This document shows, one piece after another, positions 13,707-49,158 of a stretch of 64,000 nucleotides of DNA. A model generated the notes under the pieces. The model did not search any database, was not told where the DNA came from, and saw only the letters and a list, made by a program, of their open reading frames with translations. The DNA comes from an uncultured bacterium (lineage in GTDB: Bacteria; Cloacimonadota; Cloacimonadia; Cloacimonadales; Cloacimonadaceae). The stretch spans positions 28,976-92,975 of the forward strand of contig CALDSN010000098.1 in NCBI GenBank assembly GCA_937924555.1, written 5' to 3'. The first letter of the stretch is position 1; each line of letters begins with the position of its first letter. Position numbers and translations under genes: made by a program.

Positions 13707-14777
13707 TTAGCCCAGTCCCAGCCGTTCCTGGCGATAACTGTTGTCCTGGATGTGCTGCCACCACTCACGGTTCTCAAGATACCACTCCACAGTCTTGCGG
13801 ATGCCTTGGGTAAAGGAAACGCTTGCTTCCCAGCCCAAGTCATGCTTAATCTTGGAAGCATCAATGGCATAGCGTAGGTCGTGCCCCGGTCTATCCGCCA
13901 CATACTGTATCAGTTCACGGTAGCTGCCCAAGGTTGAGGAAGGCTGCAACTCGTCTAGGTGATCACAGATTTGATGCACGATTTGGATGTTCTGCATCTC
14001 GCAGTTACCGCCAATGTTGTAGGTTTCTCCGGCTTTACCGCGAGTAATTACCGCCTCTATGGCACGGCAATGATCGTCCACATACAGCCAATCGCGTACA
14101 TTAAGTCCCTTGCCATACACAGGCAGAGCTTTATGCGCCAGGCAGTTGATTATCATCAAAGGGATAAGCTTCTCAGGGAACTGGTATGCCCCATAGTTAT
14201 TACTGCAATTGGAGATGGATACCGGCAAGCCAAAAGTGCGATGCCAGGCACGCACCAAGTGGTCGGAACCTGCCTTGGAGGCAGAGTATGGTGAGGAAGG
14301 GTCATAGGGTGTGCTTTCCGTGAAGGCACCGCTAATGCCCAAAGAGCCGAACACCTCATCTGTTGATACATGATGGAAGCGAAAGCCCTGCTTGTCTGCT
14401 TCACTCAGGCTTCTATAATACTTCAGTGATGCTTCCAGCAGCGAGGCAGTGCCAACAAGATTGGTGTTTATGAACTGCATGGGAGCGTCGATGGAACGGT
14501 CAACGTGCGACTCCGCAGCAAAGTTGATGATTGTATCCGGCTGGAAGCTTTCCAGTAAAGCAGCTATTTGTGCCGTGTCGCATATATCCGCTTGGACAAA
14601 GAAATACCTGCTTTCACCATAGCGGGATTCAATATCACGCAAGCTTTCTCTGTTCCCGGCGTAGGTGAGTTTATCGATATTCAGCAACTTCCCGGAAAAG
14701 GCAGGATTGCCAAAAAGGAAGTGGATAAAGTTAGCCCCAATAAAGCCTGCACCACCCGTGAGGACTACATTTTGCAT
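13707..14777 (-). CDS. rfbB: dTDP-glucose 4,6-dehydratase
   Basis: TGGAGFIG, NFAAESHVDRSI, HVSTDEV, YSASK, DRPGHDLRY. Confidence 0.97.
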   Translation of the reverse strand: MQNVVLTGGAGFIGANFIHFLFGNPAFSGKLLNIDKLTYAGNRESLRDIESRYGESRYFFVQADICDTAQIAALLESFQPDTIINFAAESHVDRSIDAPMQFINTNLVGTASLLEASLKYYRSLSEADKQGFRFHHVSTDEVFGSLGISGAFTESTPYDPSSPYSASKAGSDHLVRAWHRTFGLPVSISNCSNNYGAYQFPEKLIPLMIINCLAHKALPVYGKGLNVRDWLYVDDHCRAIEAVITRGKAGETYNIGGNCEMQNIQIVHQICDHLDELQPSSTLGSYRELIQYVADRPGHDLRYAIDASKIKHDLGWEASVSFTQGIRKTVEWYLENREWWQHIQDNSYRQERLGLG

Positions 14778-21143: not shown

Positions 21144-23327
21144 ATGAACAAGAGTTTTATGATCATTTTACTGGGTGTTCTAATTACAGTTTTTTCGATA
21201 GCCCAGATTTATGCCTGCGCAATGACTGCAGTAGTATGCCAAGGTGATTATACATTGCAAAGCGGAATGGTTGATTTCGGTGATGGCTCTTCTGGCGGTG
21301 GAGAATCTTATTGGCTTTACAATCAAAGCAGTTCTAACCAAGACGGACATGGAATGGTGTATTATCATAGAGCGGGATATCCAGGGCATAGCAATAAAGT
21401 ACTGCAATGCAATAACCCTATTGATTCTTTCTTCGGTGGAAGTAACAACCACGTTTATAGGCACAGTGGTCAGTTGAGCAATGCTCCTTACTCAAATAAC
21501 TATAATTGTTTTGTAGGTGCAGCAAAACAGAAACAAGCAAAGATATTCATGGGTCATGTAAGGTTAAGAAGTGATGGCCCTTTGGGAGCTTTTGCGCCTT
21601 TTGTATATCGCCATATAGACTATGTTAATGGAGTGCCCGACACTACTGATTATAGTTTTTCCCATCATGGCACAGTGAATAAATGGAGTCTGTATAATAT
21701 ACCCAGTTTTCAGAGTTGGCTGTCTAATTACGATATCCAGAATATACTAGACGGCAGTCCTACTTACTACTCATTAGCCGACAGTGTGAACAACTATGTA
21801 GACTCAGACTACCTCTTTTTGTGGTTAGTTAAATACATAGAAGATAATGCTGGAGATGTGAAACGAGGCTTAGTGGAAGGGTTGACAGCTCTAACGACAA
21901 ATAACATCGACGGGCAGAAAAACATTTTATTCTCTGATGGGACTGGAGTATATGCTTATTCCAACAACATCGATGCGATTCACAAAATGTCATACAAATC
22001 ACTACAATCTATCTATCATTACATAAGAAGCTCTGGTACCGTAGAAAGCGATTGGACTTCTCTGTCAACGCACAATCTATACTATTTCCCGACACAAGGG
22101 CAAATGGAGATTACTTATAATGCTGATAATTGTGTAACTGCGAGCTTTGCCCTGAAACAAGGATTGAACTGGATTGGATTCCCTGTTTTAGAAAGTACTT
22201 ATGGCTTATATCCAGATTACACACTCAGAGACGTCAATCAATATGCAACTACATTACAAACTAAAAACTTGACTCAACTACAACCAGCTTGGATAATTGA
22301 CGGCGATACACATCTGTGGCCTAATGGTGTATCCCTTTCCAGAACAAACGGCTACATTCTCAACATGAGTAGTGCTTCACCCGTATATGAATACTCAACC
22401 TGTGGCCAGAGAACCCCAAATAGCACTGCTTTGAGTTTATACCAAAACAACGAAAACTGGGTCCCATATTTTGTTACATACTCTCAGACACCTGCAAATG
22501 CCTTTGGTAGTAACTACTCACATGTTACTGCAATATATGCTCAAGACTGGTATAGATACAAGTACAAAGGGCAGTGGTACGGCTATATTCAACAAGGTGC
22601 AACAGGTACTATGGACTATGGGAAGATGTATAAAGTATATGTTGATCAAACCATATCAAACTTCACTTGGTCTGCTTCTGCCAGAACACAAAGTTTTGTG
22701 AAAGAGAACACTAGCTACTTTCAGTTTGCAGAACAGCCAGAATACCAAGCAATTGTGATTGAATCCATTCCTGACAGCCCAATCTTTGATGAAATTGGAG
22801 TGCTAAAGGATGGGTTATGTGTTGGTGCTCTTAAGTTTAATGGTTATCCAATCAATCTTCAAGTGTATGACAACTCTTCACCGGATGAGTATGATTACGT
22901 GCTCTATTCAGGTGCTAAGAGTAGCAACTACATGGAAAAGAAGTATTCGTCTACATCAATAGATATTAAAAATTCAGTGATTGATAGCGGTAGGCATCTA
23001 TTCTCTCTTGTAAGCCTATCGGGCAGTCAAGAAAGTGAAACAGCAGTAAGTCCTGCACTATCTGCGAGCATCTACCCCAATCCAATGCATGGTATCACCA
23101 ATATAGAAATCCAAGCTACCGCAAAGAGTGCAGTTGATGTTAGCATTTTCAACCTAAAGGGGCAATTGGTTAAAGAATTGGTTTCTAGCGAGATATCCAA
23201 GGGAAACAACACCTTTATCTGGGATGGGAAAGCTAATGATGGACGACCTGTAGCTAAAGGTATATACTTCTGTAGGATAATATCACCAAACAATCTATTG
23301 ACAAAGAAGCTGATAGTTTTAGATTAA
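21144..23327 (+). CDS. Secreted class II glutamine amidotransferase-like (Ntn hydrolase) with T9SS-type C-terminal domain
   Basis: Signal peptide then Cys25; NQDGHGMVYY, IFMGHVR, FSHHG, DSDYLF, NILFSDG; C-terminal YPNP...WDGK...GIYF. Confidence 0.75.
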   Translation: MNKSFMIILLGVLITVFSIAQIYACAMTAVVCQGDYTLQSGMVDFGDGSSGGGESYWLYNQSSSNQDGHGMVYYHRAGYPGHSNKVLQCNNPIDSFFGGSNNHVYRHSGQLSNAPYSNNYNCFVGAAKQKQAKIFMGHVRLRSDGPLGAFAPFVYRHIDYVNGVPDTTDYSFSHHGTVNKWSLYNIPSFQSWLSNYDIQNILDGSPTYYSLADSVNNYVDSDYLFLWLVKYIEDNAGDVKRGLVEGLTALTTNNIDGQKNILFSDGTGVYAYSNNIDAIHKMSYKSLQSIYHYIRSSGTVESDWTSLSTHNLYYFPTQGQMEITYNADNCVTASFALKQGLNWIGFPVLESTYGLYPDYTLRDVNQYATTLQTKNLTQLQPAWIIDGDTHLWPNGVSLSRTNGYILNMSSASPVYEYSTCGQRTPNSTALSLYQNNENWVPYFVTYSQTPANAFGSNYSHVTAIYAQDWYRYKYKGQWYGYIQQGATGTMDYGKMYKVYVDQTISNFTWSASARTQSFVKENTSYFQFAEQPEYQAIVIESIPDSPIFDEIGVLKDGLCVGALKFNGYPINLQVYDNSSPDEYDYVLYSGAKSSNYMEKKYSSTSIDIKNSVIDSGRHLFSLVSLSGSQESETAVSPALSASIYPNPMHGITNIEIQATAKSAVDVSIFNLKGQLVKELVSSEISKGNNTFIWDGKANDGRPVAKGIYFCRIISPNNLLTKKLIVLD

Positions 23328-23402: not shown

Positions 23403-25760
23403 ATGCTGACAACAAGACTGAATGGCAGTAGACCGACGCAGAATACAAGCATAGTCATATGGGTAATGCTATTCATTGCCATTTCGGTATTGCATATTGG
23501 CAGCATAAGTGCTGAAGTAATCGTTGTGGCATCTGACAACACCGGACAAGCTAACACCATTCAGGCCGGCATTAATCTGGCTGCGGTTGGTGATACGGTG
23601 TTAATCTCCCATGGGATTTGGACTGGTGCCGTTGTGATTGATAATAAACCGATAACAATTGGGAGTTATTTCATAATTGATGGCGATTCCACCCATATCA
23701 GCCAGACCATTATTGACGGTGAGGATACCAGAACCGGTATTATAATTCAAAACTGTAGCGGTGCTGTTGATACCTTAAAAGTGATTGGACTTACAATCAC
23801 GAATTGCCGTAGTAATTGGTATCCTGATACATCTGATTATTCAGTTGGAGGAGGCATAGGTATCCGTTCGTCTGATGCAAAAGTTATCAGATGTAAAATC
23901 TTCCACAATAGGGCTTATTATGGAGGCGGTATTGGGGTATATCAAGCATCTGTTTACCTATATGGTAACGAAATATTTTCAAATAGCGCTATTACATCTG
24001 GTGGAGGACTGAGTGGAAGAGGGTATAGTAATATGTACATATACTTTGATGGGTATGACCTAAACAGCGTATTTGATAACTATGCCTCGCGAGGTTGTGA
24101 CATCAGTTATGCATACAACAACTATCCTACTTCTGTTATCCTCAATAAAGGATCTGTCAGTTCTTTAGACCCATATTTCTATTTTTTGCCGGGTCAAACA
24201 ACAGTAAATGTTCTTCAGCCGATGATTACTCAAATAGACCACGACCTTTGGGTTAGCCCAGATGGTGACAATAACAATAATGGAGAAACACCACTGTCGC
24301 CACTGAGAAATATTTCATATGCCCTAGCAAAGATAAAACCCATAAGTGGTATTACTCGTACTGTTCATGTAATGCCTGGAACATATTCACGGAGTCAAAC
24401 TAATGAGGCTCTTCCCCTTCAACTAAAAAGCGACGTTAACCTATATGGTTCGGATATGGAAAGTGTCATTCTCGATGCAGAGCATTATGGAAGTTTCATA
24501 TGTGGTAAAGACGCTCAATCAAACCTTTTGATAAAGAACCTATCTCTCATAAATGGTTACTCAACAAACGACTATTTGTTTTGGATGGAGGATGTCGCTA
24601 GTGGGCATACGAACAACCTGACTGTAGATAGCATCCACATTAGAGACTCATGGGTGAAGTTTGATGCTTTCAGGATAATGTCTTGTCACAACCTCACGGT
24701 GAACAACCTCATCATTGAAGATTCTCAAGTGGGTAATGGGTTCAACATATATGCTTATGAGACAGGTAACTTCTCAAATTTCAGAGTACAGAGGCTTAGT
24801 TCAACCAATTATGATATGTATAATTCATCCTGTACGGGTGGAGGAATAGGAAAACCATTAAGTGCAGCAACATTGCAGACCACGATTAATATCTCAAACT
24901 TCCTAATTACCGATATTGTTGATACCTCCCAAATCTGGCAGAACATGCCCAGTGGGTTGTCCATTAGTGTGGAAGGTGGCAATTGCGATTTGAATGTTAG
25001 CAATTGCACTATAGCCAATAATAGCTCAGTTACTCAGAGTGGAGGATTGAACATAACGCTTGAGAACTGCAATATCCAAGTGTATAATACTGTTGTATCG
25101 GGTAATACACCATATGAAGTAGCGATGGCTGCTTTCGATGAATCCTCCTTTGCCGATGTTTCATTCAGTAATTGTATGGTTACCGGTGGTAGTGATAGTT
25201 TGTTCCTGCTTTCCGGGGACATCTCTCACACTTGGCTAGAAGGTAATCAATCTGGTGTTCCACTGTTCAGAGGAGGGGATGATATCCACAACCCGCAGTA
25301 TTACAGCCTTTCTGCCTCTTCTCCCTGCATCGATGCGGGAACACCCGACACTACGGGCTTAAGCCTTTTGCCCTATGACCTGGCGGGGAACATGCGCATC
25401 TGGAATAATGTGATAGATATGGGCTGCTTTGAGTTTGGTGCTCCACCTGTGGGAGTTGACGACCCTGTGGTTCCCCAGCCTACCGGGGCTATCTACGCAA
25501 GCAACTACCCCAATCCCTTTAACCCCGAGACCAATATCAGCTTCTTCCTGCCGGAAGCGGGCAACACCGAGCTGTGCATCTATAACCTGAAAGGGCAGGT
25601 AGTGCGCAGATTGATAAGCTCCCCCTTGGGAGCAGGCACGCACCGGGTGCTGTGGGATGGCAAAGATGAAAGCAACAGCCCTGTTGCCAGCGGGATGTAT
25701 CTCTTCCGGGTGCAGTGCGGTAAACATCAGTTCAGCGGCAAGATGGTATTGGCGAAATAG
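23403..25760 (+). CDS. Secreted parallel beta-helix (pectin-lyase-like/DUF1565) protein with T9SS-type C-terminal domain
   Basis: TIQAGIN...GDTVLI, GGGI repeats, WVSPDGDN...ISYAL, SPCIDAG...DMGCFE, NYPNPFNPET. Confidence 0.85.
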   Translation: MLTTRLNGSRPTQNTSIVIWVMLFIAISVLHIGSISAEVIVVASDNTGQANTIQAGINLAAVGDTVLISHGIWTGAVVIDNKPITIGSYFIIDGDSTHISQTIIDGEDTRTGIIIQNCSGAVDTLKVIGLTITNCRSNWYPDTSDYSVGGGIGIRSSDAKVIRCKIFHNRAYYGGGIGVYQASVYLYGNEIFSNSAITSGGGLSGRGYSNMYIYFDGYDLNSVFDNYASRGCDISYAYNNYPTSVILNKGSVSSLDPYFYFLPGQTTVNVLQPMITQIDHDLWVSPDGDNNNNGETPLSPLRNISYALAKIKPISGITRTVHVMPGTYSRSQTNEALPLQLKSDVNLYGSDMESVILDAEHYGSFICGKDAQSNLLIKNLSLINGYSTNDYLFWMEDVASGHTNNLTVDSIHIRDSWVKFDAFRIMSCHNLTVNNLIIEDSQVGNGFNIYAYETGNFSNFRVQRLSSTNYDMYNSSCTGGGIGKPLSAATLQTTINISNFLITDIVDTSQIWQNMPSGLSISVEGGNCDLNVSNCTIANNSSVTQSGGLNITLENCNIQVYNTVVSGNTPYEVAMAAFDESSFADVSFSNCMVTGGSDSLFLLSGDISHTWLEGNQSGVPLFRGGDDIHNPQYYSLSASSPCIDAGTPDTTGLSLLPYDLAGNMRIWNNVIDMGCFEFGAPPVGVDDPVVPQPTGAIYASNYPNPFNPETNISFFLPEAGNTELCIYNLKGQVVRRLISSPLGAGTHRVLWDGKDESNSPVASGMYLFRVQCGKHQFSGKMVLAK

Positions 25761-41749: not shown

Positions 41750-43435
41750 TCAGCGAGGTGTATATAAAAAAACCATATCCCCCTTGTTATACGAGGGATA
41801 GGATGCTACCAAGCGATAATCACGGGTGAACTTCACATTTAAGGCAAGTTCTAGTTTGTGGATGAACTCTTGTTTCAATTCTCCAGCGAGAGACAGCAAC
41901 ACTGGTTTTGAGGGGGTATCACTCTTTGCCAGAATGGCAAAATATAGGTCTTCCGTTTCCCGGGACCACAGCACTGTGCCGGGTTCGAAACTGCCAAGGG
42001 CATACACCAAACCGGGATGCTTATACACGGCGATTATCCCCTGTTGAGGGGTGAAGCCATAACGCGAAAGGATACCCTCTGTCTGGGTTAGGAACGCCCA
42101 CTTTGGGAAGTCATATTTAATGCCCTTATAGGCGTTATTCTGCATGTATAATGGTTGAGAACGGTATGGATGCTGCACATATTGAAACAAGCCGAAAAAC
42201 AGCACATATAGCATGATGTACGCTGCATAGCGGATAGCTTTGGCGGGATAGAATAAACCCAGCAGCAAGCTGAACCCGCCAAGCAGCAGTGAATAGTAGT
42301 ATTTGGCACCCCAATTGAGCGGGTTGGACGAACCCAAGGCACCCAGATAGGGAAGATAGAGCAGCATACCAATAAGGATTATATAGAGGTAATTGTCTCG
42401 CAGGAAACTGGGAACTGCCTTTGCTGTGGTGCTAAGATGCAAGCTGGGGGGAAGTAGCAAATAACCGATTGAGAGGTACACATAGAACAACAGGAACCCG
42501 GAGAGCAGCATCTCACCCTGCAGATGGGAGTATAAGCCGGTGGCGGTTACATAGAGCAGCATCCCCAGGGCTGCCAAGGATGCCGTTAGCTTCATGCCTT
42601 TGTTTCCGGTGAGGAGGGTGATGCGTGCCAGCAGCAGCACAACGAGAGCTTGCAACATGGCGTATAGGTTCAGTTTGGCAATATCCATTAAAGATTTGAC
42701 GAGGAGCTTGGTGTCGTAGATGATATACTTGCTCAGATAGTGGTAGAAATTGCCATAATAGGCTATCATGCCGGGTTGGATAAGCAGATTGAGCAAGGTG
42801 GCGGTGCCAAGCCATGCCAAGATGAAGGCAAGTAAGCTCCTTAGCTTATGTTGTTTGGAACATAGAAGGACGACGCTGCCGAGTAGCAATCCACCCAAGG
42901 CGGTGGGGAGTTTAACCGCCAAGATGAAGGCAAGCGGGATGGCGGAAATAGCTGAGAACAGGGTATGGTATCTTTCCTTACCTGCAGTAGCCAAGAGCAT
43001 GGATGCGGCAAAGAGGGTTAGGAGAAACTGGTTTAAGCTGTTGTAGGAAAGCTCGGAAGGAGAGCCGGCATAGGAGGCGATGAATCCTGAAAAAGCCGCA
43101 AGAAAGATAAAAGGGAAGGATATCGCTTTACTCCGCCTATAGCTAAGCACCAGATATATGCTGCTGGCAAGGTAAGTTGTGGCGAGGAGATTTATCAGCA
43201 ACCCAAGAAAACGCAGGGGTATAAGTCGGCGCATGGCTGTGGGAAGGAGGGAGCGGAGGAGGATATGCTCATACATATGCCCGCCGAACTCCACAGGTTG
43301 GGCATCCTGATAACGCAGCACATAATAGCCTGCATCACTGAAGTCAAAGGCTTTGTCAAAGCCCCAGATGATGGTGCCCAGTGAGAAGAGGACAAGCAAA
43401 ATGCCGATGATGGTGTGAAGCGGTTGCTTAGCCAA
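41750..43435 (-). CDS. Polytopic membrane protein, probable GT-C glycosyltransferase (GtrC-like)
   Basis: TM1 followed by acidic loop FDFSDAGYY; ~12 TM; periplasmic C-terminus; follows gtrA/GT2. Confidence 0.65.
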   Translation of the reverse strand: MAKQPLHTIIGILLVLFSLGTIIWGFDKAFDFSDAGYYVLRYQDAQPVEFGGHMYEHILLRSLLPTAMRRLIPLRFLGLLINLLATTYLASSIYLVLSYRRSKAISFPFIFLAAFSGFIASYAGSPSELSYNSLNQFLLTLFAASMLLATAGKERYHTLFSAISAIPLAFILAVKLPTALGGLLLGSVVLLCSKQHKLRSLLAFILAWLGTATLLNLLIQPGMIAYYGNFYHYLSKYIIYDTKLLVKSLMDIAKLNLYAMLQALVVLLLARITLLTGNKGMKLTASLAALGMLLYVTATGLYSHLQGEMLLSGFLLFYVYLSIGYLLLPPSLHLSTTAKAVPSFLRDNYLYIILIGMLLYLPYLGALGSSNPLNWGAKYYYSLLLGGFSLLLGLFYPAKAIRYAAYIMLYVLFFGLFQYVQHPYRSQPLYMQNNAYKGIKYDFPKWAFLTQTEGILSRYGFTPQQGIIAVYKHPGLVYALGSFEPGTVLWSRETEDLYFAILAKSDTPSKPVLLSLAGELKQEFIHKLELALNVKFTRDYRLVASYPSYNKGDMVFLYTPR

Positions 43436-43445
43436 GCAGCGAACC

Positions 43446-44387
43446 CTATTTGTCTTTGCGGATAATATAGCCGGGGCGGTTCTTTACCTCGTCGAAGATG
43501 CGCAGTAGATACTGTGCCAACACGCTGATGGAAAGGAGGATAAGTCCGCAGAAGAAGGACATGATGATGAGGGTGGTAGTCCAACCGGGAACACGGAAAC
43601 CGCCAAGTTGGTCTTCCCCCATCAGCTTGAGGATGATGGAGATAACTATCACCACCAAAGAAAGCACAAAGGAACCACCGCCCACAAAGGAGATTAGTTT
43701 GATGGGGAAATCTGAGGAGGCATAGAAAGTATCCTTGAACAGTCGAAGCTTCTTTTTGAAGGTCCAGCGGGATTTATGTCCTTTAGTGCTGGGGCGTTCA
43801 TAGGGTAAGTAAAGAGGATCGAAGCCGAGGCGCATCACCTCGATTAATGCGGAGGTGTTTATGGGGTGGATGCGCTGGTTCAGGATGTCGGCAACTTCTC
43901 TATCCACAGCGAAGATATCGGCACCAAGAGGAGGGAAACTGATGTCGGAGAGCTTATTCATAAGGAGGTAGTAGCTGCGGGCAAAAAGCTCGTTAAAGAT
44001 TCCGTCGTTGCGTTTGCTGCGGAAGGGGATAATCACCTGTGCGCCTTTCTGCCACTCCCGGTATATCTGCACATAAACTTCCAGAGGGGTTTGCCAGTCG
44101 TCCGGCATCATGCTCACCAGATCCCCTTTTGCCACAGATAACCCGGCAAAGATGGCGTAGTGAGAGCTGTAGTTGCGGCTGAGGCGGTATGCCTGCACCT
44201 TGGGGGATGACGCTTCAAGGGTCTTGGCGATGTTGTAGGAGTCATCGGTGGAGCCGTCATCGATAATGATGAATTCGAACTCTATGCCTTCGGCTTGGAA
44301 ACCGGAAGCAAGCTTGTGATACACCTGCGGGATGCGGTTGCCACTGTGGTATGACAACAGAATGAGAGAGAACAAGCCTGTTCTCAT
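43446..44387 (-). CDS. GT2 polyprenol-phosphate glycosyltransferase (GtrB/ArnC-like)
   Basis: IIDDGSTD, RLSRNYS, two C-terminal TMs, YLLRIFDEVKNRPGYII; ATGA overlap with gtrA. Confidence 0.92.
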   Translation of the reverse strand: MRTGLFSLILLSYHSGNRIPQVYHKLASGFQAEGIEFEFIIIDDGSTDDSYNIAKTLEASSPKVQAYRLSRNYSSHYAIFAGLSVAKGDLVSMMPDDWQTPLEVYVQIYREWQKGAQVIIPFRSKRNDGIFNELFARSYYLLMNKLSDISFPPLGADIFAVDREVADILNQRIHPINTSALIEVMRLGFDPLYLPYERPSTKGHKSRWTFKKKLRLFKDTFYASSDFPIKLISFVGGGSFVLSLVVIVISIILKLMGEDQLGGFRVPGWTTTLIIMSFFCGLILLSISVLAQYLLRIFDEVKNRPGYIIRKDK

Positions 44388-44776
44388 TGCTTTCCTCCTT
44401 GGGGGGAAAATACGATGCGCGACCAATGGTAGTTATAGGCTAAAGTGAAGGGAATAACCATGTAAGAAAGCAGCCAGTTCGGGAAAGGCAATAACACCCG
44501 GAATACATATAACATTCCCATGCCCAGGAGCATCCCCGAAAGATACACGGCGAAGTATTGCAGCATTTGCTTGGAGCTGTGACGGCTGCTGAAGGTGAAA
44601 ATGCGGTTAAGCGTATAGGAAAGCAGAATGGTGGTGATGTAGGTAAGCATGTAGGTAAGCTGCAAGGGTGTGTGATATAGCTCCAAACAAACATATAGGA
44701 TAAGCATGGAGAGGAGGGTTACCACCACTCCCACTCCGGAAAAGCGGATGAAGTCTCTGACACTAAAGTCCCGCAT
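44384..44776 (-). CDS. GtrA-family flippase
   Basis: FIRFSGVG, four TMs, [20 protein letters not shown]. Confidence 0.88.
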
Positions 44777-45890
44777 ATTGCTCCAGTGTGGATACAATGT
44801 GTTGCAATTCTTCTGTGGCAAGATATGGATTCATAGGTAAGCTGAGGCAGTGTTGGGCAATCTCCTCGGCAATGGGGAAGGAGCAGTGAGACATTTCTTG
44901 GTAGGCTTCCTGCTTGTGGGGAGGAATGGGGTAGTGAATCATGGTGCTTACCCCGGCTTGCTGTAAGTGAGATTCCAGGGCTATACGGTTCTGCGTTTGG
45001 ATAACAAATTGATGCCAACAGGGAATAAGCTCTTCTGCGGCAGGAGAGACAGAGCGAAGCTTGGTATAGGGTAAGATTATCTCGGGATTGTTCACTCCCA
45101 GATATGCATTAGCTATATTGTGACGCAACAGGTTGTGGGCATCCAGATGCGGGAGTTTAACCCGAAGGATGGCTGCTTGAAGCTCATCCAAACGGCAATT
45201 GTAACCTTTGTAAAGGTTGTGATACTTGCGGCTGGAACCGTAGTTTGCCAACATGCGCAGTTTAGTAGCAAGCTCATCGTCATTGGTTGTAATAGCACCC
45301 CCATCGCCATATGCTCCCAGGTTTTTACCGGGGTAAAAGCTGAAGGCCGCAGCATCACCCCAAGCCCCGCACTTGATACCGTTGTATGATGCACCATGTG
45401 CTTGAGCTGCATCTTCCAGAACCTTTAAATTATATTGCGAGGCAAGCTTGTTGATAGGCTTCATATCAGCAGGCATACCGTATAAATGAACGGGGATGAT
45501 GGCTTTGCTGCGTGGGGTTATAGCTTGTTCAATACGTTTGGGATCAAGGTTGTAAGTAAGCACGTCTGGTTCAACGGGGATGGGGGTAGCTCCGCAGTAG
45601 CTTACGGCTAACCAAGTGGCAATATAGGTGTTGGAGGGGACAAGAACCTCATCTCCTGCACCAATGCCCCATGCTGTAAGCGCTAAAAACAAAGCATCAA
45701 GTCCATTGCTGACCCCTATGCAGTGCTTTACCCCGATGTATGCTGCAAACTCCTGCTCGAAAGCAGCCACTTCCTCGCCCAGAATATACCAACCCTTAGC
45801 CATCACTTTGGCTATGGCTGCGTCAATCTCCTGCTTCAGCTCACGATAGCTGTTGCCAATGTCGTAGAAGGGGATATCATGCTTTTGCAT
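44763..45890 (-). CDS. fdtB: dTDP-3-amino-3,6-dideoxyhexose aminotransferase (FdtB/QdtB, DegT family)
   Basis: [36 protein letters not shown]. Confidence 0.9.
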
Positions 45891-46278
45891 AGCGGAGATA
45901 CTCGTTATAGTCTCTGATGTAGTCACCTTCGTCAAAGTACTCTGAACAAAGAACCATCAATACTGCTCCCGGGCAGAACTCGCATATATCCACCCACAAA
46001 CCGGGAGCAATGGTAGCAAGATACATGGGGGTATCGAGGGTCAGTTCCTGTGTGCTATGCCCATCACTGATTCGCAACCTGCACGAACCATTCAGACAGA
46101 TAAAACTCTGGTTCAGTTCTTTATGAGCGTGTCCTCCACGATTAAAGCAGCCATCATTTCCCCAGATGTAGAACACTCGCTTAATTATGAAGGGTAAGTC
46201 CTTCTCACCTTCCACAACAGAGAGGTTACCCCGGGCATCGAACATGGTGCTTATTGGCTTAAGCTCTATGTTCATCAT
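45877..46278 (-). CDS. fdtA: dTDP-4-keto-6-deoxyhexose 3,4-ketoisomerase (FdtA/QdtA cupin)
   Basis: [30 protein letters not shown]. Confidence 0.92.
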
Positions 46279-46826
46279 AAGGCATATCCGTGATATTTGT
46301 CAATAAGGTAGGCAGTGACGGTACTTCTAATATCGTCAGTTCCGGGATGCTTTCTTGATGTACCTGGGTGGTAAATCAGCTCTATCTCACCAGTGGGTCC
46401 TTCTGCTCTTCCTACGACAACCCACCCCAGTTTTGCATGCAAACTACGTATGGCAGTATTACTCGCCAATTGGGATGCTGCCAATGGCTTTCCGGCAAGA
46501 TGCATATAATCATGCATCATTTCTGTACCATATCCTTTGCCCTGGTATTCACCGCTTAAGGCTATGGTATGAGTAGTGAAACTTCCTCTATCTGTAAGAG
46601 TAACAAATCCAATCGTAGTACCCGGTTCATCAATAGTCTCGAATAGGTACGCACGCATTTGATGCTTATTTGTCTTCCACCAATCTACCTGATCCTTTAA
46701 GTTGCGATAGGGCAAGTCTATTGTCGCTAGCTTTTCCAGATTTTCGTTATAGATTATGCGCATGCTGTCCAAGTGCTTCAATGTCCTAACTCTAACTCTT
46801 TTTAACTGAATCTGACTTTTAAGCAT
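46275..46826 (-). CDS. GNAT acyltransferase (putative sugar N-acyltransferase)
   Basis: EYQGKGYG motif A, N.AIRSLHAKLGW; start 46826 overlaps crotonase stop. Confidence 0.75.
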   Translation of the reverse strand: MLKSQIQLKRVRVRTLKHLDSMRIIYNENLEKLATIDLPYRNLKDQVDWWKTNKHQMRAYLFETIDEPGTTIGFVTLTDRGSFTTHTIALSGEYQGKGYGTEMMHDYMHLAGKPLAASQLASNTAIRSLHAKLGWVVVGRAEGPTGEIELIYHPGTSRKHPGTDDIRSTVTAYLIDKYHGYAL

Positions 46827-47550
46827 CCAATACCCCTCTACCCACAGAGTTCTGCACCATTGACACAACCATGGCATATTCGGGATCATCGGCTTGGGGC
46901 ATATTATATCCACCATGTCCCTTGAAATGCTGCTTGTAAAGCCGATAATTATGGTTCCCACTGTTTAGTTTTGCACACAACTCCTGCAAGCGAGTTAACA
47001 AGTTTACCTCGCATAATTCATCCACCAATTCCATAGCTGCTGCTTGCATTGGGTTGATGAACTCACCCATCAGAAGCATTCTAGCGCTGTGTAATCCTGC
47101 TTTGGCTATGATCTCACGCATCAATCCGGGAAGGCTTATACCTTTGGGATATTCAGGGAAACCAATCTTGATTTTTTCGTTGGCATCAATTAAACGATAG
47201 TCTGTGGCTAAAGCAAGTACAGCCCCGCTTCCCACAGCATGACCATTGATTGCGGAGATAATCAACTTAGAACTACGGAGGACTTTATAGAGCAAAATAT
47301 CCAGCAGATACAGAGTGCGGATTGCGCTCTCTTGTTCCAATTTTGCCATAGCTTCAAGGTTCATTCCGGTGCAAAAAGCACGCTCCGACCCCGTGAAGCA
47401 GATTATATCCACTTTAGGGTCACTATCATACTTATCAAAGGCTGTTGCTAGTTCAACAATAATCTCTTGAGTCAGTGAATTCTTTTGTTCAGATCTCAAA
47501 GTTAGTAAAACAGAGTTATCGGTTATGTAGCTGACAAATACATTATCCAT
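46819..47550 (-). CDS. Crotonase-fold (enoyl-CoA hydratase/isomerase) protein
   Basis: NSLT.E, AFCTGMNL, AINGHAVGSG..LALATDYR, GFPE, GLVDEL-like motif. Confidence 0.88.
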   Translation of the reverse strand: MDNVFVSYITDNSVLLTLRSEQKNSLTQEIIVELATAFDKYDSDPKVDIICFTGSERAFCTGMNLEAMAKLEQESAIRTLYLLDILLYKVLRSSKLIISAINGHAVGSGAVLALATDYRLIDANEKIKIGFPEYPKGISLPGLMREIIAKAGLHSARMLLMGEFINPMQAAAMELVDELCEVNLLTRLQELCAKLNSGNHNYRLYKQHFKGHGGYNMPQADDPEYAMVVSMVQNSVGRGVLDA

Positions 47551-47563
47551 GGTTTCTCCCGCT

Positions 47564-48421
47564 TTACACCAAGCTTTCCAGATACTCGCCATATCCGCTT
47601 TTTCTTATTGGAGCTGCGATTCTTAGCAATTGCTCTTTGCTGATAAAACCTTTCCGATAAGCTATCTCTTCGATGCAGCCTATCTTAAAGCCCTGTCTTT
47701 GTTCTATCACCGAGATGAACTGTGATGCCTGCAACAAGGACTCAAATGTCCCCGTATCCAGCCAGGCATAGCCCCTACCAAACACCAGCACATTAAGCTT
47801 ATTCATCTCCAGATATACTTTGTTCACATCCGTGATTTCATATTCACCTCGGGCAGATGGTTGTATCCTATGGGCAATCTCCACCACACTGTTATCGTAG
47901 AAGTATAATCCCGGCACGGCATAGGTGGATTTCGGCTCGCTGGGTTTTTCTTCCAGGCTAAGCACCTTTCCGCAGGAAGCGAACTCCACCACTCCATAAC
48001 GCTGGGGGTCAACCACGGGATAAGCAGTGATGATGGCTCCATCGGGCTTAGTGCACTCTGCCAGCCTGCTTTGGATATCCGCTCCGTAAAAGATGTTATC
48101 TCCCAGGATAAGGCATACGCTATCTCCGCCAATGAAATCTGCACCAAGCACAAAAGCCTGTGCCAAACCGTTGGGAACTTCCTGCGCCACATAGCTGAAG
48201 CACATCCCAAGTTGGCTACCATCACCCAATAATTTTATGAAACTTTCTTGTTCGGCTGGAGTGGTGATTATCAACACTTCCCTTATGCCAGCAAGCATTA
48301 GCACGGAGAGGGGGTAATATATCATCGGCTTGTCATAAACAGGCATAAGCTGCTTACTGACGGCAATGGTCAAGGGGTGCAATCTGGTGCCGGAACCTCC
48401 GGCGAGGATGATACCTTTCAT
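47564..48421 (-). CDS. rfbA: Glucose-1-phosphate thymidylyltransferase
   Basis: [49 protein letters not shown]. Confidence 0.97.
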
Positions 48422-48663: not shown

Positions 48664-49158
48664 ATGGATGCTATCATTAGACTTGCTACAGATGTGGACA
48701 AGGAATCCGTGATTGGTATTCTAAACCACTATATCCAAAACAGCATGGCGGCATATCCACAACATCCAATGCCCCTGCAAGCATGGGAACCGATGCTTGC
48801 TATGTGTCGTGACAACAATCTCTGGGTGGCAGAAATCCCCGGAGAAGGGGTTGTAGGCTTTGCCATGCTAAAGTGGTATATGACCAAGGATAGCTTTGCG
48901 CACACCGCCGAAACAGGCTATTTCATCCACCCCGCTCACACGGGTAAAGGCTTGGGCAAGTTGCTTCTCACTGCATTGGAAGATGCCGCCAAAAAGATGG
49001 GTGTTACAATGCTGGTTGCCAATATCTCCTCGTTGAACCCCGAAAGTCTTGCCTTTCACAAGAGAACAGGATTTGTTGAATGCGGAACTATCCCGGCAGT
49101 GGGTGAGAAGAAAGGTAGCAAGTTCGACATCGTGTGGGTGTATAAGGCTATCGCATAG
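48664..49158 (+). CDS. GNAT N-acetyltransferase (phosphinothricin/MddA-like)
   Basis: YFIHPAHTGKGLG, NPESLAFHKRTGF..CG. Confidence 0.88.
   Translation: MDAIIRLATDVDKESVIGILNHYIQNSMAAYPQHPMPLQAWEPMLAMCRDNNLWVAEIPGEGVVGFAMLKWYMTKDSFAHTAETGYFIHPAHTGKGLGKLLLTALEDAAKKMGVTMLVANISSLNPESLAFHKRTGFVECGTIPAVGEKKGSKFDIVWVYKAIA

What the first reader, a model, noticed from the sequence alone, without database searches (positions are those of the whole stretch)
46275..47550. Low-GC crotonase + GNAT cassette; crotonase keeps only one catalytic glutamate
Seen: hand-counted 60-nt lines in these two genes give about 37-45% GC versus about 52% in a GT2 line. The crotonase has GSGAVLALATD, with Val where hydratases carry the Glu144 equivalent, but keeps the Glu164 equivalent in GFPEYPKG. 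The GNAT has His where the usual Tyr of 'LY.KLGF' lies. Known: classical hydratases need both Glu; single-Glu members are often isomerases or decarboxylase-type. Inference: a swappable acyl-tailoring cassette, possibly making something other than 3-hydroxybutyryl (for example an enoyl or decarboxylated acyl).
Basis: partly seen in the sequence, partly recalled or inferred. Interest (0 to 1): 0.65.

Follow-up and report, generated by a model that had tools for sequence, protein, structure and literature searches.

The report
Half-deleted sugar acylation module, Cloacimonadota
The crotonase and GNAT genes are the always-retained half of a previously undescribed four-enzyme module (FabH, FabG, single-glutamate crotonase, GNAT) that puts a short acyl group on a cell-surface amino sugar, and this strain has cleanly lost the FabH-FabG half and swapped in a rare GNAT allele.

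Summary
All three observations hold. The crotonase and GNAT have GC 0.43 and GC3 0.40-0.43, against a window gene mean GC3 of 0.55. The crotonase has Val111 at the Glu144 position and keeps Glu133, the Glu164 equivalent. The GNAT has His130 at the usual Tyr position.

The context changes the reading. The genes sit in an operon: RmlA, crotonase, GNAT, FdtA, QdtB-like aminotransferase, GtrA, GT2, 561-aa membrane protein. This is a Gtr/Arn-like route that puts an N-acyl-3-amino-3,6-dideoxyhexose on a periplasmic acceptor.

Ten related Cloacimonadota loci carry FabH-FabG-crotonase-GNAT. Bacteroidota polysaccharide loci, including Parabacteroides goldsteinii, hold the same four genes in another order. 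The missing Glu144 is family-wide.

FabH-FabG was lost at least three times:
- a scarless deletion in the window;
- a deletion leaving stubs in HGW-Cloacimonetes-3;
- replacement by an FdtC-type acetyltransferase in one MAG.

Crotonase-GNAT always stays intact, with dN/dS of 0.12-0.19.

Against a strain about 99% identical in the shared stretches, the window differs by two recombination tracts. One removes FabH-FabG. The other swaps the GNAT core for a rare allele, to which His130 belongs; the family norm is Asn.

The acyl group is unknown. This is a new variant of a known kind.

The parts
47564..48421 (-). rmlA, glucose-1-phosphate thymidylyltransferase; first gene of the operon
   Evidence: TIGR01207 rmlA 454 bits against a cut-off of 360. 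99.6% aa identity to L006.
47551..47563 (-). RmlA-crotonase spacer. In relatives it is the RmlA-FabH spacer with its ribosome-binding site. Here it is joined directly to the crotonase ATG, giving a scarless FabH-FabG deletion junction.
   Evidence: TAAAGCGGGAGAAAC is identical to the L006 RmlA-FabH spacer. The L006 contig carries 1840 nt where the window has 131 nt. The junction is identical in an independent Logan assembly, L007.
46819..47550 (-). Crotonase-fold enzyme, 243 aa. Val111 (47220-47218) sits at the Glu144 position and Glu133 (47154-47152) at the Glu164 position.
   Evidence: Pfam ECH_1 107 bits. No NCBIfam equivalog cut-off reached. Residue mapping.
47421..47551 (-). Recombination tract 1: the first 43 codons of the crotonase, 51-68% identical to L006, GC 0.336. 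In L006 the same interval holds FabH, FabG and a divergent crotonase 5' end (1840 nt).
46392..46873 (-). Recombination tract 2: the last 55 nt of the crotonase plus GNAT codons 1-145 (the whole catalytic core). A length-matched 482-nt allelic replacement, 52-70% identical to L006.
   Evidence: joint 46391/46874, '482 letters between'.
46275..46826 (-). GNAT acyltransferase, 183 aa, rare 'class I' allele with His130 (46439-46437). Its start overlaps the crotonase stop by 8 nt and its stop overlaps the FdtA start.
   Evidence: Pfam Acetyltransf_1 31.7 bits against 20.7. AF2 pLDDT 89 with a GNAT fold. Alignment A3. The family has only 39 clusters at E<=1e-10 among 1.84 billion representatives.
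45877..46278 (-). FdtA-type dTDP-4-oxo-6-deoxyglucose 3,4-ketoisomerase
   Evidence: Pfam FdtA 145 bits. Best PDB match is FdtA 2PA7 at 3e-35; QdtA scores 3e-30.
44763..45890 (-). DegT-family dTDP-3-oxo-6-deoxyhexose 3-aminotransferase (FdtB/QdtB-like)
   Evidence: Best PDB match is QdtB 3FRK at 3e-121.
44384..44776 (-). GtrA-like small membrane protein (putative flippase of the lipid-linked sugar)
   Evidence: Pfam GtrA_DPMS_TM 63.5 bits.
43446..44387 (-). GT2 polyprenyl-phosphate glycosyltransferase (GtrB/ArnC/PgfS-like)
   Evidence: Pfam Glycos_transf_2. NCBIfam PgfS 139 bits and ArnC 96 bits, both below cut-off.
41750..43435 (-). 561-aa polytopic membrane protein with no Pfam family. Presumed GT-C-like transferase that puts the sugar on its periplasmic acceptor.
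   Evidence: No Pfam or NCBIfam hit. Always last in the operon in relatives, with 72% mean column identity. Found in only 4 GTDB species genomes.
13707..14777 (-). RmlB-like dTDP-glucose 4,6-dehydratase candidate, encoded away from the operon
   Evidence: Pfam GDP_Man_Dehyd 298 bits. tblastn hit.

Best explanation
The crotonase and GNAT are the conserved core of an acyl-tailoring module for a dTDP-3-amino-3,6-dideoxyhexose.

Shown by homology: RmlA (with an RmlB-like gene at 13.7 kb), FdtA and a QdtB-like aminotransferase make the dTDP-3-amino sugar.

Inferred: the GNAT N-acylates that amine with a short acyl thioester. The crotonase conditions that thioester. GT2, GtrA and the 561-aa membrane protein then move the acylated sugar via undecaprenyl phosphate to a periplasmic acceptor, as in Gtr/Arn systems.

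In the ancestral module a dedicated FabH and FabG build a 3-hydroxy-C4-type acyl thioester de novo, and the crotonase acts between FabG and the GNAT. This crotonase family keeps the oxyanion hole and the Glu164-type base but never has Glu144. It therefore most likely performs a one-base reaction at C-alpha (enoyl formation or double-bond or stereo-isomerisation) rather than classical (S)-specific hydration.

The window strain has lost FabH-FabG by a clean deletion that leaves the crotonase behind the old FabH ribosome-binding site. It has also exchanged the GNAT catalytic core for a rare allele with changes on beta4, beta5 and alpha4, including Asn->His130. I read this as a switch to an acyl-CoA taken from central fermentation metabolism, such as the crotonyl- or 3-hydroxybutyryl-CoA pool. 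On this reading it is natural reprogramming of the surface glycan's N-acyl group, not a foreign cassette.
For: Operon anatomy and sugar pathway.

Four-gene module FabH-FabG-crotonase-GNAT:
- Ten Cloacimonadota loci carry it or a contig-truncated part of it: L001, L003-L006, L010, L011, L018, L019, L034.
- Eight Bacteroidota-type loci hold the same four genes plus FdtA and DegT in a different order: L021-L024, L027, L029-L031 (L028 duplicates L027). FabH there is 62-69% identical.
- One of these crotonases is 100% identical to a Parabacteroides goldsteinii protein, in a Wzx-type locus.
- FabH and FabG are bona fide: 7e-73 to 4DFE with Cys/His/Asn present, and 4e-63 to FabG.

Crotonase: no Glu at the 144 position and an invariant Glu at the 164 position in all members, down to 21-25% identity.

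Independent FabH-FabG losses with crotonase-GNAT intact:
- Window: scarless junction.
- L009: RmlA, 22-bp spacer, then the crotonase.
- L014: spacer holds FabH N-terminal and FabG C-terminal stubs.
- L012: an FdtC-type LbH gene (1e-56 to 7S43/4MZU) is fused to the last FabG codons.
- The backbone tree puts these losses in different clades, each next to a relative that retains FabH-FabG.

Constraint: dN/dS of crotonase and GNAT is 0.12-0.19 wherever dS is unsaturated, including L012-L003 and L014-L003; 0.31 for the mosaic crotonase in WIN-L006.

Mosaic against the sister strain L006.

GNAT allele: class I occurs only in FabH-FabG-less loci, namely the window and L009/L017.

Expression hint: two 151-nt contigs of a metatranscriptome run match the window-specific GNAT allele with 1-2 differences.
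Against: - No enzyme was assayed and the acyl group is unknown.
- The strict conservation of all four genes across two phyla suggests the crotonase and GNAT normally depend on FabH-FabG. The window deletion is recent (RmlA is 99.6% identical to L006), so intact genes there do not prove function.
- In L012 an N-acetyltransferase sits beside crotonase-GNAT. That fits 'crotonase-GNAT alone cannot acylate'.
- The class I allele versus FabH-FabG loss association rests on two lineages (Fisher p = 0.08).
- FabG products are (R)-3-hydroxyacyl thioesters, probably on ACP, whereas crotonases classically handle (S)-CoA esters. No ACP gene is in the locus.
- Foldseek and PDB searches do not discriminate hydratase from isomerase.
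Confidence: 0.55

Rival explanations
1. Relic. After the recent FabH-FabG deletion, the window's crotonase and GNAT have no substrate and are on the way to decay. The amino sugar stays unacylated, or the branch pathway is off, which would be glycan variation by loss of function.
For: The four-gene module is conserved as a unit across Cloacimonadota and Bacteroidota. The window deletion is very recent. In L012 the loss coincides with gain of an FdtC-type N-acetyltransferase, as if a replacement acylation were needed.
Against: - Both ORFs are intact and translationally coupled. The crotonase gained an ATG start behind a good ribosome-binding site.
- L014 lost FabH-FabG long enough ago for the stubs to diverge (14 of 20 residues identical). 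It still has intact crotonase and GNAT with no branch acceleration (0.16/0.22 against 0.19/0.27 in L004) and dN/dS of 0.15-0.19.
- The window GNAT core is a distinct, conserved allele shared at 66% identity with a second FabH-FabG-less lineage. It keeps all family-invariant residues.
- RNA-run contigs match it.
Confidence: 0.2
2. Classical route. The crotonase is an ordinary short-chain enoyl-CoA hydratase that makes (S)-3-hydroxybutyryl-CoA from crotonyl-CoA, and the GNAT is a functional analogue of FdhC/QdhC that adds 3-hydroxybutanoyl.
For: The best profile matches in the PDB are C3-C4 hydratases and dehydratases (5ZAI 7e-47, 5Z7R 8e-43, 5JBW), ahead of the isomerase 1XX4 at 7e-32. N-(3-hydroxybutanoyl)-Fuc3N and -Qui3N made by GNAT-type FdhC/QdhC next to fdtA/fdtB are well known (PMC4869667). 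It would explain why crotonase-GNAT can work without FabH-FabG.
Against: The Glu144 equivalent is absent (Val, Leu or Phe) in every family member over deep divergence. From memory of rat hydratase mutagenesis, loss of Glu144 costs about 10^3-fold in hydration. If the GNAT only needed 3-hydroxybutyryl thioester, FabH plus FabG would supply it and the crotonase would be superfluous in the ancestral module. The GNAT shows no detectable sequence relation to any solved GNAT.
Confidence: 0.15
3. First reader's version. A low-GC, horizontally acquired crotonase+GNAT cassette that replaces FdtC-type acetylation and makes an enoyl or decarboxylated acyl group.
For: GC3 dip. Single-Glu active site. Synonymous divergence of crotonase and GNAT between window and L005 (pS 0.85-0.87) exceeds that of backbone genes (0.54-0.70), so the block has its own history.
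Against: The pair is present in every relative and is never replaced. Its only homologues above 45% identity are in the same locus of Cloacimonadota. The crotonase core is 93-100% identical to the sister strain's. Low GC is shared by FabH-FabG in L005, L006 and L010 and is absent in clade B. Decarboxylase-type crotonases lack the Glu164 equivalent (from memory), which is invariant here.
Confidence: 0.1

Closest known systems
FdhC / QdhC (GNAT-type 3-hydroxybutanoyltransferases for dTDP-Fuc3N / dTDP-Qui3N; E. coli O103, Salmonella O55, Acinetobacter, Hafnia alvei)
   Same: A GNAT-fold enzyme encoded between or next to fdtA and fdtB with rmlA, presumed to N-acylate the 3-amino group with a C4 acyl-CoA (PMC4869667).
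   Different: No detectable sequence relation: no FdhC-type chain appears in PDB searches at E<=1 or in the Foldseek top 50. This GNAT has its own small family of 39 clusters at 50% identity. It has Asn or His instead of the usual Tyr. It is always paired with a crotonase, and ancestrally with FabH and FabG; FdhC loci have none of these.
FdtC / QdtC / FdtD / H. pullorum N-acetyltransferase (LbH-fold dTDP-3-amino-3,6-dideoxyhexose N-acetyltransferases; PDB 7S43, 4MZU, 3FS8)
   Same: Same substrate class and same position in the pathway. A close homologue (1e-56) sits in relative L012 exactly where FabH-FabG lie elsewhere.
   Different: Different fold (left-handed beta-helix) and different donor (acetyl-CoA). 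Absent from the window.
Xanthomonas campestris wxc region 3 (wxcK aminotransferase, WxcM, WxcN small membrane protein) adding FucNAc side branches to the O-antigen
   Same: A dTDP-3-acylamido-3,6-dideoxyhexose pathway combined with a GtrA-like small membrane protein for post-polymerisation branching. wxcK and wxcN mutants lose the branch (PMC4878081).
   Different: There the acyl group is acetyl, from an LbH domain. No crotonase, GNAT, FabH or FabG. Different phylum.
Arn pathway (ArnB/ArnA/ArnC/ArnT) and Gtr O-antigen glucosylation (GtrA/GtrB/GtrC)
   Same: The order aminotransferase, N-acylation, GT2 transfer to undecaprenyl phosphate, flipping, then GT-C transfer in the periplasm. GT2 resembles ArnC/PgfS and GtrA is a Pfam match.
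   Different: dTDP- rather than UDP-sugar. Scores are below equivalog cut-offs. The 561-aa membrane protein has no family assignment. The acceptor is unknown.
Single-base crotonases: mitochondrial delta3,delta2-enoyl-CoA isomerase (1XX4, 1SG4). Also RpfF/DfsA, crotonases that act on FabG-derived 3-hydroxyacyl-ACP.
   Same: Like the isomerase, only the Glu164-equivalent acid is present and the usual P-G-x-G-G-T-Q-R-L loop is missing. Like RpfF, the genomic logic puts a crotonase directly after FabH and FabG.
   Different: Overall similarity is higher to short-chain hydratases than to the isomerase. RpfF has both Glu (from memory) and releases a free acid. There is no direct evidence for ACP substrates here.

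Membership tests
Crotonase / enoyl-CoA hydratase-isomerase superfamily (Pfam PF00378) | ECH_1 domain above the gathering score; crotonase fold | tested here: met
   107 bits against 27. AF2 model pTM 0.76. Foldseek TM 0.72-0.74 to crotonases.
Crotonase / enoyl-CoA hydratase-isomerase superfamily (Pfam PF00378) | Two oxyanion-hole segments (F-x-x-G... and G-x-G) | tested here: met
   AFCTGMNL and GHAVGSG align with the corresponding segments of solved hydratases. G62, G107 and G109 are invariant.
Classical enoyl-CoA hydratase (crotonase, EC 4.2.1.17) | First catalytic Glu (rat Glu144) in G-G-G-x-E | tested here: not met
   Val111 in the window. Val, Leu or Phe in all 20 family members aligned.
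Classical enoyl-CoA hydratase (crotonase, EC 4.2.1.17) | Second catalytic Glu (rat Glu164) | tested here: met
   Glu133 is invariant.
Classical enoyl-CoA hydratase (crotonase, EC 4.2.1.17) | Reaches an NCBIfam equivalog cut-off | tested here: not met
   Best score is 78 bits against cut-offs of 171-400.
Mitochondrial-type delta3,delta2-enoyl-CoA isomerase | A single catalytic Glu at the 164-equivalent position, with no Glu at 144 | tested here: met
Mitochondrial-type delta3,delta2-enoyl-CoA isomerase | Closest sequence or structure neighbour is an isomerase; isomerase activity | tested here: inconclusive
   1XX4 scores 7e-32 against 7e-47 for hydratases. Foldseek ranks both alike. Activity is not testable here.
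GNAT superfamily | GNAT fold and Pfam match | tested here: met
   Acetyltransf_1 31.7 bits against 20.7. AF2 pLDDT 89. Foldseek probability 1.0 to PAT/SpeG/YncA.
GNAT superfamily | Motif A (Q/R-x-x-G-x-G/A) for CoA pyrophosphate binding | tested here: met
   Y-Q-G-K-G-Y-G at residues 94-100. G98 and G100 are invariant.
GNAT superfamily | General-acid Tyr on helix alpha4 (common, not universal) | tested here: not met
   His130 in the window. Asn in nearly all family members.
FdhC/QdhC 3-hydroxybutanoyltransferases | Sequence homology to FdhC | tested here: not met
   No such chain found at E<=1 with the single sequence or E<=0.1 with the family profile. That FdhC structures are in the PDB is from memory.
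FdhC/QdhC 3-hydroxybutanoyltransferases | Transfers 3-hydroxybutanoyl from CoA to dTDP-Fuc3N or dTDP-Qui3N | not testable with these tools
   Needs an enzyme assay.
dTDP-3-amino-3,6-dideoxyhexose pathway (RmlA/RmlB/FdtA or QdtA/FdtB or QdtB) | All four enzymes encoded | tested here: met
   RmlA equivalog. FdtA 2PA7 3e-35. QdtB 3FRK 3e-121. RmlB-like gene at 13707-14777. Whether the configuration is galacto or gluco is not resolved.
Gtr/Arn-type lipid-linked periplasmic glycosylation | GtrA-like protein plus polyprenyl-phosphate GT2 plus GT-C transferase | tested here: inconclusive
   GtrA and GT2 are met. The 561-aa membrane protein has no family match, so a GT-C fold is assumed and was not tested.

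The most novel reading that the evidence does not exclude
FabH-FabG-crotonase-GNAT is an undescribed four-enzyme module spanning two phyla: Cloacimonadota and gut Bacteroidota such as Parabacteroides goldsteinii. It would build a non-standard short acyl group de novo and put it on 3-amino-3,6-dideoxyhexoses, using a new one-base crotonase subfamily and a GNAT family with Asn in place of the catalytic Tyr. Natural strains would reprogram the glycan's N-acyl group by deleting FabH-FabG and exchanging the GNAT acyl-pocket allele (Asn->His130). That would be antigenic variation by switching the acyl donor rather than the sugar.
Probability: 0.3. Interest if true: 0.7.

Novelty: new variant of a known kind. 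Interest (0 to 1): 0.55.

Why it matters
N-acyl groups on rare amino sugars are major determinants of O-antigen and capsule specificity. The known routes use one transferase (FdtC/QdtC or FdhC) and a donor from general metabolism. Here a dedicated mini fatty-acid-type line (FabH, FabG, an unusual crotonase) is wired to a private GNAT family. It is conserved from anaerobic-digester Cloacimonadota to a cultured human-gut Parabacteroides, so it can be studied at the bench. The window offers a natural experiment: two nearly identical strains differ only by loss of FabH-FabG and by the GNAT core. That pairing could show how acyl-donor choice is encoded and how surface glycans diversify by small recombination tracts. 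It also defines a crotonase subfamily whose chemistry cannot be read from the two canonical glutamates.

Tried and rejected
- tblastn of FabH and FabG against the window found nothing. The deletion is not a relocation within 64 kb.
- Looking for FdhC-like relatives of the GNAT with the single sequence, the family profile and Foldseek. No specific relative was found, only generic PAT/SpeG-type GNATs.
- Using PDB and Foldseek neighbours to decide hydratase versus isomerase. The result was not discriminating.
- Literature searches for a described FabH/FabG/crotonase/GNAT sugar-acylation module, or for a P. goldsteinii glycan with such a group. Nothing was found. One search was rejected for syntax.
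- Horizontal import from outside the phylum was rejected. All close homologues lie in the same locus of Cloacimonadota.
- His130 as a conserved replacement of the catalytic Tyr was rejected. The family norm is Asn.
- RNA evidence is thin: two 151-nt Logan contigs in one metatranscriptome run.
Full report
**1. What is at the coordinates**

On the minus strand, eight tightly packed genes form one operon:
- rmlA, 48421..47564
- a 243-aa crotonase-fold protein, 47550..46819
- a 183-aa GNAT, 46826..46275
- fdtA, 46278..45877
- a DegT aminotransferase, 45890..44763
- gtrA-like, 44776..44384
- a GT2, 44387..43446
- a 561-aa membrane protein, 43435..41750

Stop and start codons overlap at crotonase/GNAT (8 nt) and at GNAT/FdtA.

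Family assignments:
- RmlA reaches its NCBIfam equivalog cut-off.
- FdtA matches PDB 2PA7 at 3e-35.
- The aminotransferase matches QdtB 3FRK at 3e-121.
- An RmlB-like dehydratase lies at 13707-14777.

The operon therefore makes a dTDP-3-amino-3,6-dideoxyhexose. With GtrA, a GtrB/ArnC/PgfS-like GT2 and a large polytopic protein, it most likely delivers the sugar through undecaprenyl phosphate to a periplasmic acceptor. This last part is inferred from gene content. The 561-aa protein has no family match.

**2. The three observations**

*Composition.* Crotonase and GNAT have GC 0.429 and 0.428, and GC3 0.434 and 0.397. The other operon genes have GC 0.465-0.511 and GC3 0.51-0.66. Among 52 long ORFs of the window, GC3 averages 0.550 with SD 0.055. 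Only two other genes are as low. As plain GC, the 1276-bp stretch is at the 6.7th percentile of equal-sized windows. The discontinuity is real but moderate.

*Crotonase.* Alignments to solved hydratases place Val111 at the Glu144-type position and Glu133 at the Glu164-type position.

*GNAT.* His130 lies on helix alpha4, where many GNATs have Tyr.

**3. Relatives show what the window is missing**

Both proteins have very few homologues among 5.8 billion sequences (9 and 8). All lie in the same locus of Cloacimonadota.

Ten related loci read RmlA-FabH-FabG-crotonase-GNAT-FdtA-DegT-GtrA-GT2-561aa, or a contig-truncated part of that order: L001, L003, L004, L005, L006, L010, L011, L018, L019 and L034. 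L003 has a second, paralogous crotonase. FabH (7e-73 to 4DFE, Cys/His/Asn present) and FabG (4e-63) are genuine.

The window has neither gene anywhere in its 64 kb. Its RmlA stop is followed by the RmlA-FabH spacer with its ribosome-binding site, identical to L006, and then directly by the crotonase ATG. An independent assembly from another run (L007) is identical over 6672 bp.

**4. The four genes are one conserved module**

A metagenome scan with the GNAT family found eight distinct loci with FdtA, FdtA', GNAT, FabH, FabG, crotonase and DegT in a different gene order. FabH there is 62-69% identical. One of these crotonases is 100% identical to a Parabacteroides goldsteinii protein. It lies in a Wzx-type polysaccharide locus with an initiating GT4 and a GT2.

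These crotonases are only 21-25% identical to the window's. They still lack an acid at the 144 position (Leu or Phe) and keep the Glu at the 164 position. G103, H104, G107, G109, D117, K128, G130, P132, E133 and D84 are invariant. The single-Glu pattern is therefore a defining, selected trait of a crotonase family linked to FabH, FabG and this GNAT. It is not a peculiarity of the window. D84 and H104 are candidates for a second catalytic group (inference).

The GNAT family is small: 39 clusters at E<=1e-10 among 1.84 billion representatives. It has no solved relative. It nearly always has Asn at the 'Tyr' position.

**5. Recurrent loss of FabH-FabG with crotonase-GNAT retained**

Besides the window, three other loci lack FabH-FabG:
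- L009 has RmlA, a 22-bp spacer, then the crotonase.
- L014 (HGW-Cloacimonetes-3) has a 112-bp spacer. It still encodes 'MKQMLRKVYKIGTDACVPEM' (the FabH N-terminus, 14 of 20 identical) fused to 'INKGGYHG*' (the FabG C-terminus).
- L012 has an FdtC-type LbH N-acetyltransferase (1e-56 to 7S43 and 4MZU) in place of FabH-FabG. Its last codons, '..EWHLG*', are the FabG 3' end.

A backbone tree places these forms in different clades, each next to a relative that keeps FabH-FabG. L012 and L003 are almost identical in backbone. There were therefore at least three independent losses.

Crotonase and GNAT stay intact in all of them. Wherever dS is unsaturated, their dN/dS is 0.12-0.19, like their neighbours; the one exception is 0.31 for the mosaic crotonase in the window-L006 pair. 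L014's branches are not accelerated.

**6. The window is a mosaic**

Against L006, which comes from another metagenome, nucleotide identity runs as follows:

| Window interval | Content | Identity to L006 |
|---|---|---|
| 48421-47552 | rmlA and spacer | 98-100% |
| 47551-47421 | first 43 crotonase codons | 51-68% |
| 47420-46874 | crotonase core | 93-100% |
| 46873-46392 | crotonase tail and GNAT codons 1-145 | 52-70% |
| 46391 onward | GNAT 3' end | 95-100% |

In the second interval L006 carries 1840 nt, including FabH-FabG, where the window has 131 nt. In the fourth interval a length-matched 482-nt stretch is replaced.

Synonymous divergence of crotonase and GNAT between the window and L005 (pS 0.85-0.87) exceeds that of backbone genes (0.54-0.70). 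The acyl block therefore has its own recombinational history. In clade A the whole FabH-FabG-crotonase-GNAT block is low in GC. In clade B it is not. The GC dip thus marks an allele lineage within the phylum, not a foreign import.

**7. The GNAT allele**

The window's GNAT core belongs to a rare 'class I' allele, shared at 66% identity with P0026/L017/L009. It differs from all others on three elements:
- beta4: TPILAV becomes THTIAL
- beta5: AGSQLV becomes AASQLA
- alpha4: RHMN becomes RSLH, which includes His130

From general knowledge of GNATs, these elements frame the acyl-CoA site.

Both lineages with class I whose upstream region is known lack FabH-FabG. Nine of eleven class II loci have it (Fisher p = 0.08). 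This is suggestive only. A metatranscriptome run holds two 151-nt contigs that match this allele with 1-2 differences.

**8. Mechanism**

*Shown.* The sugar pathway is established by homology. The module's composition, its conservation, the recurrent loss of FabH-FabG, the mosaic and the active-site pattern are all observed.

*Inferred.* The GNAT N-acylates the 3-amino group. Supporting this, the family is always next to DegT, and a 33%-identical member lies directly beside DegT alone in L032. FabH and FabG build a 3-hydroxy-C4-type thioester. The crotonase transforms it with a single base.

For the window I favour a switch to a donor scavenged from central metabolism, with the class I GNAT adapted to it (confidence 0.55 for the overall explanation). 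The main rival is that crotonase-GNAT here are recent relics (0.2). An ordinary hydratase/FdhC-like route has confidence 0.15.

**9. Comparison with known systems**

- Closest in role: FdhC/QdhC (PMC4869667) and FdtC/QdtC.
- Closest in operon logic: the Xanthomonas wxc region 3, which adds FucNAc side branches (PMC4878081), and the Arn and Gtr systems.

Four literature searches found no description of a FabH-FabG-crotonase-GNAT sugar-acylation module. The library is incomplete, so this is not proof of novelty. I rate it a new variant of a known kind.

**10. Limits**

No enzyme data exist. The acyl group, the acceptor, and the ACP-versus-CoA question are open. Several inferences rest on few lineages.

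Noticed in passing
window 21144-23327 and 23403-25760 (+): The two lowest-GC3 genes of the window (0.365 and 0.435; GC 0.396 and 0.437). Together they form the window's deepest GC trough, with a minimum of 0.38 at about 20.7-22 kb.
   Followed up: no
window 48664-49158 (+): A second GNAT of 164 aa, of the phosphinothricin/Acetyltransf_1 type, is divergently transcribed from rmlA. It is conserved at the same place in relatives L003, L005, L007, L010 and L012. It may or may not belong to the glycan system.
   Followed up: partly
L003:3700-4413 and L003:4460-5191: Two crotonase paralogues sit in tandem (48% identity to the window enzyme for the extra one), and both have the single-Glu pattern. 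L001 has only the 'extra' type. This looks like recombination between two cassette lineages.
   Followed up: partly
L021, L024, L027, L029, L030, L031 (for example L031:5173-5992): The Bacteroidota-type loci carry two, and in L027 three, FdtA-like cupin genes in tandem upstream of the GNAT. The role of the extra copies is unknown.
   Followed up: no
L032:1-1948: A high-GC contig in which a T4-lysozyme-like ORF is followed by a 33%-identical member of this GNAT family, a DegT aminotransferase and a GT2-like ORF. There is no FabH, FabG or crotonase. It may be a phage-borne or mobile glycan-modification set.
   Followed up: no
L012:9552-9941: The called FdtA gene is short (120 aa), but an in-frame ATG 30 nt upstream (MNIEIKKVNT..) would restore the usual N-terminus. 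This is probably a gene-calling artefact rather than a truncation.
   Followed up: no
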